A stretch of DNA of 4,429 nucleotides from a virus (taxonomy: Duplodnaviria > Heunggongvirae > Uroviricota > Caudoviricetes), in IMG/VR virus record IMGVR_UViG_2675903289_000007, one strand, 5' to 3'. Shown here piece by piece: positions 1-4,429 of this stretch (within the stretch, counting starts at the first letter, position 1; every line of letters starts with the position of its first letter). A program made the translations under genes and the position numbers. Below the pieces are notes generated by a model. The model did not search any database. It saw nothing but the letters and a program-made list of their open reading frames with translations, and was not told the origin of the DNA.

Positions 1-109
1 ACACTAAATCAGTAAGTTGGCAGCATCACCGAAGTGGTAAAGAAGATAATAAAGAATAATATTTAGGGTTATAGGTCTTAGCCCATTTTAAATGGAAGGC
101 AGACATGCA

Positions 110-444: not shown

Positions 445-464
445 NNNNNNNNNNNNNNNNNNNN
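445..464. other. Run of N (masked or unresolved bases)
   Basis: 20 consecutive n characters. Confidence 1.
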
Positions 465-2552: not shown

Positions 2553-2689
2553 TGTTTGAGTTTTATATGGCAGAACTTCTTCGCCACCGCTGGGGGCATC
2601 TGCGCTTATATCGTTTCCCCGGTTCTGTTTTGACCGATTACCGAATACTGAAGAATTACGCCAAAACCCTGACAGGAGCAGGAGTATGA
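2549..2689 (+). CDS. ylcG: YlcG-like small prophage protein, 46 aa
   Basis: Absent from the ORF track (short). ATG 2549 overlaps the rusA stop (ATGA); translates [46 protein letters not shown]; stop TGA 2687-2689. Position between rusA and Q matches DLP12 organisation. Confidence 0.6.
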
Positions 2690-2774
2690 AGTCAGAGATA
2701 ACAATCAACTAATACTGTTTTGTTGATTTTTGCTTGTAATTGGCGTTCTGGTCTGATTTTTGTGGAGTAAGTTG

Positions 2775-3167
2775 ATGCGTGATATTCAGATGGTTCTTGA
2801 GCGTTGGGGAGCGTGGGCGGCTAATAATCATGAAGATGTGACCTGGTCGTCCATTGCCGCCGGTTTTAAGGGATTAATTACTTCAAAAGTAAAATCTCGC
2901 CCGCAATGTTGTGACGATGACGCGATGATTATTTGCGGGTGCATGGCCCGTCTGAAAAAGAACAACAGCGATTTGCACGATTTATTAGTAGATTATTATG
3001 TAGTCGGTATGACATTCATGTCACTGGCAGGTAAGCATTGCTGCTCTGATGGTTATATCGGGAAAAGGTTACAGAAGGCTGAGGGCATAATTGAAGGGAT
3101 GTTAATGGCATTAGATATCCGGTTAGAGATGGATATCGTTGCTGTAGGTATGGTTTACCAGTTCTAA
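2775..3167 (+). CDS. quuD: Late-gene antitermination protein Q, small Cys-rich DLP12/phage-82 type; 130 aa as encoded here, with an atypical C-terminus identical to a porin terminal beta-strand
   Basis: ATG 2775 with GGAG about 8 nt upstream (the ORF-track TTG at 2760 is less likely). Product [35 protein letters not shown]... with Cys clusters ([18 protein letters not shown]). The last 11 residues [11 protein letters not shown] are a canonical porin C-terminus; see findings. Confidence 0.8.
3132..3141 (+). repeat. Left copy of 10-bp inverted repeat GATATCGTTG, at the junction where Q switches to porin-type C-terminal codons
   Basis: Exact reverse complement (CAACGATATC) occurs at 3406-3415. 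Sequence identity between the two gene ends stops immediately outside these 10 bp on both sides. Confidence 0.8.
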
Positions 3168-3183
3168 TTTGATTACTAAAAGA

Positions 3184-3337
3184 NNNNNNNNNNNNNNNNN
3201 NNNNNNNNNNNNNNNNNNNNNNNNNNNNNNNNNNNNNNNNNNNNNNNNNNNNNNNNNNNNNNNNNNNNNNNNNNNNNNNNNNNNNNNNNNNNNNNNNNNN
3301 NNNNNNNNNNNNNNNNNNNNNNNNNNNNNNNNNNNNN
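3184..3337. other. Run of N (masked or unresolved bases), 154 nt, inside the Q-porin intergenic segment
   Basis: Continuous n characters. Confidence 1.
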
Positions 3338-3371
3338 GGGGCGTTGCAACGCCCCATTTTTAATAATTTTT
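3338..3371 (+). terminator. Intrinsic (rho-independent) terminator, plus-strand orientation
   Basis: GC-rich stem GGGGCG (3338-3343) / CGCCCC (3350-3355) with loop TTGCAA, followed directly by ATTTTTAATAATTTTT (3356-3371). The 5' flank is masked, so a matching A-tract (bidirectional terminator) cannot be assessed. Sits 170 nt downstream of the Q stop and about 30 nt from the porin stop. Confidence 0.65.
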
Positions 3372-3388
3372 AGTAAACAATTGGCATA

Positions 3389-4429
3389 TTAATTAGAGTT
3401 ATTAACAACGATATCATCGGTAGCAACGCCAGATGCTTTCGTGAAATCGCTCTTATCAATCAGGTTGATTTTGTAATCAACAAAAGTGGACATATTTTTG
3501 TTGAAGTAATAGGTTGCACCTACATCAATATATTCAACCAGGTCCTGATCACCCCACGCACCCAAGTCTTTTCCTTTAGATTGCAGGTAAGCAACGGACG
3601 GACGCAGACCGAAGTCGAACTGATATTGTGCAACTACTTCGAAGTTTTGTGCTTTGTTGGCAATATGGTTATTACCAAAAACAGTCATGTTCTGGGTTTC
3701 AGAATAGGTGGTAGCCAGATAGATGTTGTTCGCATCATATTTCAGACCAGCTGCCCATACTTCAGCATTTTGACCAGATGCATTCAGGCTGTTGTTACCG
3801 TAGATAACCTGATTATTAGTGCGGTCAGATTTAGCATAGGTTGCACCTACACCGAATCCTTCATACTCATAAGTAGTGGAGAAACCGAAACCATCACCAT
3901 TAGCTTCAGTTACGTCAGTGCGGTCATTTTTACCCTGATACTGAGCAGCAAAGTTCAGACCATCAACCAGACCAAAGAAGTCGTTGTTACGATAAGTTGC
4001 AACACCAGTGGTGCGACCAGTCATGAACACATCTGTTTGAGTCCAAGTGTCACCACCGAATTCTGGCAGGACGTCAGTCCACGCACCGATGTCGTATGCT
4101 ACACCGTAGTTACGGCCGTAATCGATGGAGCCGTAGTCACCGAATTTCAGGCCAGCGAAGGCAAGACGGGTTTTATCTTTGGAGGAACCTTGAGATTCAG
4201 CGCGGTTGCCTTTGAATTCATATTCCCACTGACCGAAACCAGTCAGTTGATCGTTGATTTGGGTTTCACCTTTGAAGCCAAGACGGGCATAAGTAGTATC
4301 ACCATCATCTGCATCATTAGAGGAGAAGTAGTGCTTAGCATTAACTTTCCCGTACAGATCCAGCTTGTTACTGTCTTTATTATAAATTTCAGCTGCCTGA
4401 GCAGACATCGCCATCAGTACTGATGCAGC
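3389..4429 (-). CDS. nmpC: Outer-membrane general porin of the NmpC / OmpD / Lc (phage-borne OmpC-like) family; 5' end beyond the window (signal peptide only partly present); C-terminus aberrant (ends DDIVVNNSN, terminal beta-strand and Phe missing)
   Basis: Frame is open to the window edge upstream of the ORF-track Met (reads ...[12 protein letters not shown] then mature [16 protein letters not shown]...). Throughout, the product carries porin hallmarks ([104 protein letters not shown]). Stop TAA (complement) at 3389-3391. Confidence 0.9.
3406..3415 (-). repeat. Right copy of 10-bp inverted repeat (CAACGATATC on plus strand), at the junction where the porin loses its canonical C-terminus
   Basis: Reverse complement of 3132-3141. 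On the minus strand it encodes the D-I-V of the porin tail, after which the frame reads VNNSN-stop instead of AVGxVYQF. Confidence 0.8.

What the first reader, a model, noticed from the sequence alone, without database searches (positions are those of the whole stretch)
3168..3388. Q-porin intergenic segment carries a terminator and the would-be porin 3'UTR; inversion would re-wire it from the porin transcript to the Q transcript
In the present orientation a strong hairpin plus T-tract (3338-3371) terminates plus-strand transcription 170 nt downstream of Q. Immediately after the Q stop there is a -35-like TTGATT (3169-3174), with everything between masked. This resembles a lambdoid late leader (promoter, short RNA, terminator). 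In the opposite orientation the same element would be a ~170-nt 3'UTR plus terminator for the porin. From memory, an sRNA that down-regulates OmpC/OmpF (IpeX) has been described in the untranslated region between the nmpC stop and its terminator in DLP12. If the segment inverts, a porin-regulating 3'UTR RNA would switch between being made with the porin and being made as the tail of the Q/nin transcript. The core is masked, so this is inference.
Basis: inference. Interest (0 to 1): 0.6.

Follow-up and report, generated by a model that had tools for sequence, protein, structure and literature searches.

The report
Inverted copy of prophage IpeX region
The stretch between the phage Q gene and the porin gene is the already-known porin 3' untranslated region (the IpeX small-RNA locus) with its terminator, flipped in this one draft assembly by a 231-bp inversion seen nowhere else, so it is a one-off lesion or artefact and not a genetic switch.

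Summary
The window is a whole 4,429-bp scaffold of a draft assembly (GCA_001251775.1, CXCF01000238.1). It carries a DLP12-type lambdoid prophage: ninB, ninE, ybcO, rusA, ylcG and quuD(Q) on the + strand, and a convergent porin gene. The Ns are scaffold-gap estimates, not masking; the 154-N run stands for 121 nt in relatives. The hairpin plus T-tract at 3338-3371 is real. Flipped back, the visible parts of 3142-3405 match the K-12 DLP12 quuD-nmpC intergenic region, where the 167-nt sRNA IpeX is made as the tail of the porin transcript. A 231-bp segment bounded by a perfect 10-bp inverted repeat (3132-3141 / 3406-3415, the D-I-V codons of both genes) is inverted relative to every relative examined. 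Canonical orientation: 2,487 complete E. coli genomes, 36 phage records, about 190 metagenome and viral contigs. Window orientation: none. The inversion swaps the C-termini in frame. Q gains the porin's AVGMVYQF tail. The porin loses its last beta-strand and terminal Phe. The late-leader reading and the reversible-switch idea are not supported. The element is known and the allele is a singleton that cannot be verified without reads.

The parts
1..30 (.). Last 30 nt of IS1. The scaffold starts at this repeat. The IS1 is inserted in the 3' end of the prophage replication gene P.
   Evidence: Exact match to positions 739-768 of K-12 IS1A. A7 colinearity starts at window 30, inside the A7 P gene.
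2775..3167 (+). quuD-type antiterminator Q, chimeric. The body is normal, but the last 8 codons plus stop (3142-3167, AVGMVYQF*) are the porin's C-terminal codons.
   Evidence: Pfam PF06530 matches residues 1-118 of 130, over the full profile. Termini compared with A7, RM14723 and K-12. This exact protein is found on only this one contig.
3132..3141 (.). Left arm of the 10-bp inverted repeat GATATCGTTG (codons D-I-V of Q); left inversion breakpoint.
   Evidence: Alignments of all E. coli genomes to the left junction stop here.
3142..3405 (.). Inverted segment: 231 real bp in relatives, 264 here because of the over-estimated gap.
   Evidence: Window 3142-3183 maps to A7 10262..10221 and 3338-3405 maps to A7 10099..10032, both in reverse, with colinear flanks. 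Segment length is constant in canonical loci (174 of 177 within 1 nt).
3168..3183 (+). First 16 nt of the porin 3'UTR (IpeX region), here directly after the Q stop.
   Evidence: Identical to the sequence that follows the porin stop codon in RM14723, A7 and L015-type loci.
3184..3337 (.). Scaffold gap (154 N) standing for about 121 nt. By homology these would be three hairpins and an A/U-rich linker of the IpeX region.
   Evidence: Ns are in the stored record. Length mismatch. Predicted content and fold come from relatives.
3338..3371 (+). Intrinsic terminator of the porin/IpeX transcript (stem-loop 3338-3355 plus T-runs), here pointing in the Q direction.
   Evidence: In canonical relatives the same hairpin and T-run are on the porin-sense strand.
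3389..3405 (-). Q's original last codons (VNNSN*) now fused in frame to the porin.
3406..3415 (.). Right arm of the inverted repeat CAACGATATC (codons D-I-V of the porin); right breakpoint.
   Evidence: Alignments to the right junction end within 3 nt of this arm (window 3418).
3389..4429 (-). nmpC/lc-type prophage porin. It is cut in its signal peptide by the scaffold end. Its C-terminal beta-strand AVGMVYQF is replaced by VNNSN.
   Evidence: Porin_1 profile matched at 1-329 of 337 here, against 1-337 of 337 for the A7 porin. Annotated as a porin in relatives.

Best explanation
Interval 3168-3388 is the 3' untranslated region of the DLP12-type prophage porin gene (nmpC), i.e. the IpeX small-RNA locus, together with its Rho-independent terminator. 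In this record it lies in the reverse of its normal orientation. A 231-bp piece bounded by a perfect 10-bp inverted repeat (GATATCGTTG, the Asp-Ile-Val codons that happen to occur near the end of both Q and the porin) has been inverted. Normally the porin promoter drives porin mRNA through about 165 nt of structured UTR to the terminator, and IpeX is processed from that tail and represses OmpC/OmpF (shown in the literature, not here). After the inversion the IpeX-sense sequence and the strong terminator lie directly behind Q on the + strand. The sequence could therefore only be transcribed by read-through of the early nin/Q operon (inferred). The porin transcript now runs through the antisense of IpeX toward a weaker bulged hairpin plus CUUUU next to Q (inferred). 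Both reading frames are in the same phase at the repeat, so the gene ends are swapped in frame. Q keeps its whole conserved domain and gains AVGMVYQF. The porin loses its last beta-strand and terminal Phe, which outer-membrane assembly needs (established knowledge for PhoE-type porins), so it is most likely non-functional. I read this as a single, non-programmed rearrangement in one isolate, probably RecA-independent template switching or recombination at a short inverted repeat. It inactivates the porin/IpeX module much as the IS5 insertion does in K-12.
For: Identity and orientation. Flipping 3142-3405 restores base-for-base colinearity with K-12, RM14723 and A7. The K-12 region lies between quuD and nmpC of DLP12. 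Literature places IpeX (167 nt) in DLP12, as part of the porin transcript. The terminator is real and is on the porin-sense strand in canonical loci. The porin-sense UTR folds at -67 kcal/mol, z -8.3. It is nearly invariant in 182 loci, with common polymorphisms confined to loops, a bulge and G-U-compatible positions. Inverted repeat and breakpoints. In-frame swap and domain consequences. One-off status: no inverted junction in 5,426 complete E. coli genomes, metagenome contigs, viral contigs or species representatives. By contrast the canonical form is in 2,487 genomes, 36 phage records, 87 metagenome hits and at least 120 viral hits. The chimeric Q protein is on this one contig only. K-12 IS5 sits 58 nt from the nmpC 3' end.
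Against: The central 121 nt of the segment are absent from the record, so only 110 of 231 nt were actually compared. The record is a poor short-read scaffold (852 of 4,429 positions are N), and the inversion has no independent support. No RNA data were available, so every statement about which transcripts carry the IpeX sequence is inference from geometry. The primary IpeX paper was not held, so exact published ends could not be compared. Loss of porin function is inferred from general knowledge, not tested.
Confidence: 0.78

Rival explanations
1. The inversion is not in the bacterium's genome. It is an artefact of library preparation or assembly, such as fold-back or template-switch chimeras at the short inverted repeat, taken up into a low-coverage scaffold. 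The true locus would be canonical and this finding would simply be the ordinary IpeX region.
For: This is the only occurrence among thousands of loci. The record is a gap-ridden scaffold with wrongly sized gaps. Both contig pieces stop 42 and 68 nt inside the segment, at the edges of strong hairpins, and the middle was never assembled.
Against: Both reciprocal junctions are present inside contiguous sequence, and they are consistent with one clean inversion. A 10-bp repeat is far below any usual assembler k-mer or gap-filler overlap, so reads spanning the junctions must have existed (inference). The flanks form a natural haplotype seen in 15 other loci.
Confidence: 0.18
2. The 231-bp cassette is a genuine reversible (phase-variable) switch. 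It toggles the porin's last strand and the IpeX RNA between the porin transcript and the Q transcript, and was captured here in the rare state.
For: The segment is bounded by a perfect inverted repeat. The swap is in frame for both genes. The cassette carries one terminator-like element per strand, so either orientation gives each gene a terminator.
Against: There are no inverted copies against more than 2,700 canonical ones. The right arm is imperfect (CAACGATGTC) in 92 of 177 canonical loci, K-12 included. The repeat is only 10 bp of coding sequence and, from my memory of hix/gix/fim sites, does not resemble them. No invertase is annotated in the 15 kb around the closest relative's copy. The flipped state truncates the porin's conserved C-terminus.
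Confidence: 0.03
3. The interval is a lambda-type late leader: a late promoter (TTGATT as -35), a short 6S-like RNA with a Q-utilisation site, and terminator tR'.
For: Its position directly after Q and the terminator about 160 nt downstream, in the window's orientation.
Against: No -10 lies at the right spacing, and there is no promoter-like site on either strand in complete relatives. In every canonical relative, including isolated phages such as ev243, PhiR70_1 and mEp332, TTGATT and the terminator lie on the strand opposite to Q. The sequence is the porin 3'UTR. In relatives the lysis genes essD, rrrD and rzpD lie beyond the porin.
Confidence: 0.01

Closest known systems
IpeX sRNA / nmpC 3'UTR of cryptic prophage DLP12 (E. 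coli K-12)
   Same: The same sequence, as far as the record shows it. It lies in the same prophage module (quuD, convergent porin), has the same terminator hairpin, and spans about 161-171 nt from stop codon to T-runs, against the published 167 nt.
   Different: Here the locus is inverted, so it is cut off from the porin promoter and co-oriented with Q. The central 121 nt are missing from the record.
K-12 nmpC::IS5 allele
   Same: It is a lesion within the last 60 nt of the porin gene that removes the porin's C-terminal strand and separates the 3'UTR from the porin promoter.
   Different: The cause is an IS5 insertion, not a short-repeat inversion. Q is untouched in K-12.
Inversions between short inverted repeats in E. 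coli (RecA-independent, template-switch type; from my own knowledge of the mutagenesis literature)
   Same: The breakpoints lie exactly at a 10-bp perfect inverted repeat 231 bp apart. It is a singleton event.
   Different: The mechanism was not tested here. The classic cases were selected in reporter genes.
Site-specific invertible switches (fimS, Hin/Gin/Cin/Pin)
   Same: A short segment flanked by inverted repeats whose orientation decides which gene is joined to which sequence.
   Different: Only one orientation is seen in populations. There is no conserved recombination site and no adjacent invertase, and the flipped state damages a gene.
3'UTR-derived Hfq-dependent sRNAs in general (from my own knowledge, e.g. 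CpxQ, SroC)
   Same: A structured mRNA tail that ends at the gene's own intrinsic terminator, preceded by an A/U-rich single-stranded stretch.
   Different: It is phage-borne. Reviews state that target recognition does not rely on complementarity alone.

Membership tests
IpeX / nmpC 3'UTR locus | Sequence homologous to the DLP12 region between the nmpC stop codon and quuD | tested here: met
   After flipping, the Q-proximal 68 nt are identical to K-12 apart from the terminator loop, and the porin-proximal 42 nt are identical to RM14723 and A7. The central 121 nt are not in the record.
IpeX / nmpC 3'UTR locus | Lies directly 3' of the porin stop codon on the porin strand, so that it is made from the porin promoter as part of the porin transcript | tested here: not met
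   In the window the IpeX-sense strand is the + strand, directly 3' of Q. The porin is on the - strand. The feature is met in all canonical relatives.
IpeX / nmpC 3'UTR locus | Ends at a Rho-independent terminator, giving an RNA of about 167 nt | tested here: met
   Terminator at 3338-3371. Distance from the stop codon to the T-runs is 161-171 nt in complete relatives. Published length is 167 nt.
IpeX / nmpC 3'UTR locus | Represses OmpC/OmpF synthesis | not testable with these tools
   Known only from literature statements.
Intrinsic (Rho-independent) terminator | G+C-rich stem-loop immediately followed by a T-run on the transcribed strand | tested here: met
   7-bp stem with 6 G-C pairs, 4-nt loop, tail ATTTTTAATA on the + strand. 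Energy -14.2 kcal/mol.
Lambdoid late leader (PR', qut, tR') | Sigma-70 promoter directly downstream of Q on the Q strand | tested here: not met
   No promoter-like site in complete relatives on either strand. TTGATT is on the porin strand in canonical phages.
Lambdoid late leader (PR', qut, tR') | Terminator co-oriented with Q and the late genes in functional phages | tested here: not met
   In canonical genomes and phages the hairpin and T-run are on the strand opposite to Q.
Programmed invertible DNA switch | Both orientations occur among related genomes or populations | tested here: not met
   No inverted copies against 2,487 genomes, 36 phage records and about 190 contigs that are canonical.
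Programmed invertible DNA switch | Conserved inverted-repeat recombination sites | tested here: not met
   The repeat is 10 bp of coding sequence. It is perfect in 82 of 177 canonical loci and imperfect in 92.
Programmed invertible DNA switch | A dedicated invertase encoded nearby | tested here: inconclusive
   None in the window and none annotated in 15 kb of the closest relative A7. RM14723's DLP12 does have a 'recombinase family protein' ybcK about 3.5 kb upstream of Q. A trans-acting enzyme cannot be excluded.

The most novel reading that the evidence does not exclude
The 231-bp cassette could be a rare but genuine invertible element. The shared D-I-V codons of Q and the porin would act as crossover sites. 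Flipping would switch off the porin (by removing its assembly signal), move the porin-repressing IpeX RNA from lysogenic (porin promoter) to lytic (early operon) expression, and alter the C-terminus of Q. That would be a recombinase-independent or trans-catalysed 'C-terminus swap' switch between convergent genes.
Probability: 0.03. Interest if true: 0.6.

Novelty: already known. Interest (0 to 1): 0.17.

Why it matters
The element itself (porin 3'UTR, IpeX, terminator) is described, so recognising it adds little. Three points are worth keeping. First, the Ns in this window are assembly gaps with wrong lengths, so distances measured across them are unreliable. Second, the window carries a unique structural allele that swaps the ends of two convergent genes in frame, through a 10-bp repeat created by shared codons. 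If real, it is a second, independent way of knocking out the prophage porin/IpeX module, beside the K-12 IS5 insertion, which hints that losing this module is tolerated or favoured in some lineages. Third, the canonical segment carries one terminator per strand, each at the far end. Q-sense and porin-sense transcripts should therefore overlap over the whole IpeX region, an antisense relationship that has not, to my knowledge, been examined.

Tried and rejected
1. I looked for unmasked sequence. The exact-protein lookup returned the source record itself with the same Ns, so the core had to be inferred from relatives.
2. The primary IpeX paper (tried as PMC1347279, an id recalled from memory) is not held. 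I used statements from two reviews/papers instead. Exact published coordinates were therefore not compared.
3. Rfam 15 at gathering threshold gave no family on the window or on the complete relative, so there was no curated model to test against.
4. The K-12 RefSeq annotation in the collection lists no ipeX feature between quuD and nmpC.
5. Two scans of the species-representative genome collection found no inverted junction. This says little, because (from my knowledge of GTDB) E. coli and Shigella count as one species there, and no canonical-junction control was run in that collection.
6. A literature search for the assembly or contig accession found nothing, so the organism label, read type and pipeline remain unknown.
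7. The 18 loci where my pattern found no porin tail were checked as possible porin-less Q neighbours. Thirteen have a porin-tail sequence variant in canonical order; the other five gave no alignment to L001, and the three whose sequence I printed are unrelated chance matches. They were no help in locating the late promoter.
8. I looked for compensatory covariation in the UTR. The sequences are too similar, so only loop, bulge and G-U changes occur.
9. I considered a large inversion between two prophage copies. It would also need the 10-bp repeat and is less parsimonious than a local flip. It cannot be excluded, because the join across the gap is a scaffolder's inference.

Full report
**What the window is.** ORF listing and comparison with annotated genomes show a DLP12-type lambdoid prophage. 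On the + strand lie ninB/ybcN (1285-1740), ninE, ybcO, rusA, ylcG and the antiterminator gene quuD (Q, 2775-3167). A convergent nmpC/lc-type porin gene lies on the - strand (3389 to the end of the window). An exact-protein lookup of the window's Q found one contig in the whole assembly index. That contig is the window itself: NCBI GCA_001251775.1, record CXCF01000238.1, 4,429 bp.

**The Ns are assembly gaps, not masking.** The stored record has the same runs of N. Against the closest complete relative, E. coli A7, the pieces on either side of the two left N-runs are 100% identical, and those flanking the 154-N run are 100% and 94% identical. Yet the N-runs of 20, 678 and 154 correspond to only 5, 613 and 121 real bases. 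The length of the Q-porin segment is constant in canonical loci: in 174 of 177 it varies by no more than one base. The Ns are therefore scaffold-gap size estimates. Two things follow. Distances measured across 3184-3337 are wrong by 33 nt, and the join across that gap is a scaffolder's inference. The scaffold also begins with the last 30 nt of IS1, inserted in the 3' end of replication gene P, a typical short-read contig boundary.

**The observation.**
- The hairpin GGGGCGTTGCAACGCCCC (3338-3355) followed by ATTTTTAATAATTTTT on the + strand is real. It is the only terminator-like site in 2600-3700, at -14.2 kcal/mol with 1 of 200 shuffles folding as well.
- TTGATT does follow the Q stop codon.
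- TTGATT has no -10 partner. In complete relatives the bases at the right spacing are GGGAGG, and the consensus scan finds no promoter-like site on either strand.

**What the segment is.** Aligning the window with RM14723 showed that the sequence between two short repeats is the reverse complement of the normal arrangement.
- The repeats are a perfect 10-bp inverted pair: GATATCGTTG at 3132-3141 and CAACGATATC at 3406-3415.
- Against A7, window 3142-3183 maps to 10262..10221 and 3338-3405 maps to 10099..10032, both in reverse. Everything outside the repeats is colinear. This is a clean 231-bp inversion.
- When the segment is flipped back, its Q-proximal 68 nt are identical to K-12 DLP12 except in the terminator loop. 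Its porin-proximal 42 nt are identical to RM14723 and A7.
- One natural haplotype, seen in 15 loci, matches both visible flanks exactly.

In K-12 this is the interval between quuD and the 3' fragment of nmpC. Papers held here describe IpeX as a 167-nt RNA of DLP12. It is synthesised from the porin promoter as part of the porin transcript and then processed. It represses ompC and ompF, with Hfq needed for at least some targets (PMC12197685; PMC5069750; PMC3333887). In complete relatives the distance from the porin stop codon to the terminator T-runs is 161-171 nt, which fits.

**Structure of the complete segment in relatives.**
- On the porin-sense strand the UTR folds into three hairpins, an A/U-rich linker and the terminator. 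The energy is -67 kcal/mol, z -8.3.
- The UTR is nearly invariant across 182 loci (47 variants). The common polymorphisms lie in hairpin loops, in a bulge, or are G-U-compatible. This is consistent with the structure, but no compensatory changes are available to prove it.
- Rfam has no matching family.
- On the Q-sense strand there is a bulged 15-bp hairpin followed by CUUUU(U) at the porin-proximal end (-21 kcal/mol for the 56-nt K-12 stretch, z -5.1). The segment thus carries one terminator-like element per strand, each at the far end from its gene.

**Consequences of the inversion.** The repeat is the Asp-Ile-Val codon triplet of both proteins, in the same reading phase, so the ends are exchanged in frame.
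- Q now ends [14 protein letters not shown], where relatives have [11 protein letters not shown].
- The porin now ends [11 protein letters not shown], where relatives have [14 protein letters not shown].
- Q's Pfam domain is intact (residues 1-118, full profile).
- The porin lacks the last 8 positions of the Porin_1 profile (1-329 of 337, against 1-337 of 337 in A7). From established knowledge, the C-terminal strand ending in Phe is needed for outer-membrane assembly of this porin class, so I infer that the porin is non-functional.
- The IpeX-sense sequence and the strong terminator are now behind Q. IpeX is cut off from the porin promoter and could only be made by read-through of the early nin/Q operon. 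The porin transcript would run antisense through it. These transcript statements are inference from geometry.

**Is it a switch?** I searched for the window's junctions widely.
- Among 5,426 complete E. coli genomes, 2,428 and 2,197 records match the two junction probes, but no alignment crosses either repeat.
- The inverted left junction has no exact hit in metagenome contigs or viral contigs. Neither inverted junction has an exact hit in the species-representative genomes.
- Positive controls with the canonical junction gave 87 metagenome hits and at least 120 viral hits. Of the hits with enough flanking sequence to classify (195), 177 plus 13 have the canonical colinear arrangement and five are unrelated chance matches.
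- 2,487 complete genomes and 36 of 36 phage records carry the canonical arrangement in one colinear alignment.
- The right arm of the repeat is imperfect in 92 of 177 canonical loci, including K-12.
- No invertase is annotated within 15 kb in the closest relative.

A programmed, reversible inversion is therefore very unlikely. The late-leader reading fails as well. In every canonical genome and phage, TTGATT and the terminator are on the strand opposite to Q, and the lysis genes lie beyond the porin.

**Real or artefact?** Both reciprocal junctions lie inside contiguous sequence. A 10-bp repeat is too short to confuse an assembler or gap-filler, so junction-spanning reads must have existed (inference). 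On the other hand, the scaffold is poor. The middle of the segment was never assembled, both pieces stop at the edge of strong hairpins, and the allele is a singleton. I put about 0.78 on a real one-off inversion of the known locus, 0.18 on an artefact, 0.03 on a genuine switch and 0.01 on the late-leader reading. Only the raw reads or PCR on the isolate can decide.

**Comparison with known systems, and verdict.** The element is the known nmpC 3'UTR / IpeX locus with its terminator. The window's copy meets the sequence and terminator criteria. It fails the positional criterion (3' of the porin on the porin strand) because of the inversion. The closest analogue of the lesion is the K-12 IS5 insertion 58 nt from the nmpC 3' end, which likewise removes the porin's last strand and unhooks the UTR. 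Its 'masked core', the 170-nt distance, the promoter/late-leader idea and the re-wiring switch are not supported. Interest is low: a known element in a singleton allele that cannot be verified here.

Noticed in passing
window 445-464, 510-1187, 3184-3337: The three N-runs are scaffold-gap estimates of the wrong size. They stand for 5, 613 and 121 bases in the closest complete genome (flanking pieces 94-100% identical). Any distance measured across them in this window is unreliable.
   Followed up: yes
window 1-30: This is the exact last 30 nt of IS1. The insertion lies about 30 nt before the end of the prophage replication gene P (compared with E. coli A7), so this prophage is probably replication-defective. 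It also explains why the contig ends here.
   Followed up: partly
L003 (K-12) 3030-4286; corresponds to window about 3389-3446: In K-12, IS5 sits 58 nt from the 3' end of nmpC. That is within 35 nt of the inversion breakpoint seen here. Two independent lesions remove the porin's last strand and detach the IpeX region from the porin promoter.
   Followed up: partly
L003 2980-3022, L211 10188-10228; in the window only the tail is visible (3169-3183, - strand): On the Q-sense strand the canonical segment has a bulged 15-bp hairpin followed by CUUUU(U). It is terminator-like but missed by the simple scan. Q-sense and porin-sense transcripts would then overlap over the whole IpeX region, so early-operon read-through would make an anti-IpeX RNA.
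   Followed up: partly
window 3169-3181 and 3368-3380: A 13-nt imperfect inverted repeat (TTGATTACTAAAA / TTTTAGTAAACAA) brackets the UTR. In the predicted fold of complete relatives these ends pair and close the whole IpeX region into one domain.
   Followed up: no
window 3113-3136 (L001 4415-4438): The end of the Q gene contains a second GATATC that forms a weak hairpin with the left repeat arm (GATATCCGGTTAGAGATGGATATC). In canonical relatives it is followed by GTTGTTAATA and is flagged as terminator-like. The inversion changes that tail.
   Followed up: no
window 108 to about 880, - strand (A7 L211 7108-7910): Two small hypothetical genes on the opposite strand sit in an AT-rich insert between gene P and ninB. 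They lie mostly inside the 678-N gap, and one visible part looks membrane-spanning. This may be a moron-like insert of unknown function.
   Followed up: no
L001 1-548 (RM14723 DLP12): Classic DLP12 carries ybcK, annotated 'recombinase family protein', about 3.5 kb upstream of Q. The A7-type prophage that is closest to the window has no such gene in the 15 kb examined.
   Followed up: no
L001 4300-6400: The consensus promoter scan found no sigma-70-like site in 2.1 kb covering the Q end, the porin gene and the porin-essD intergenic region, where shuffles give 5.3 +/- 1.9. Neither the porin promoter nor the late promoter was located.
   Followed up: no
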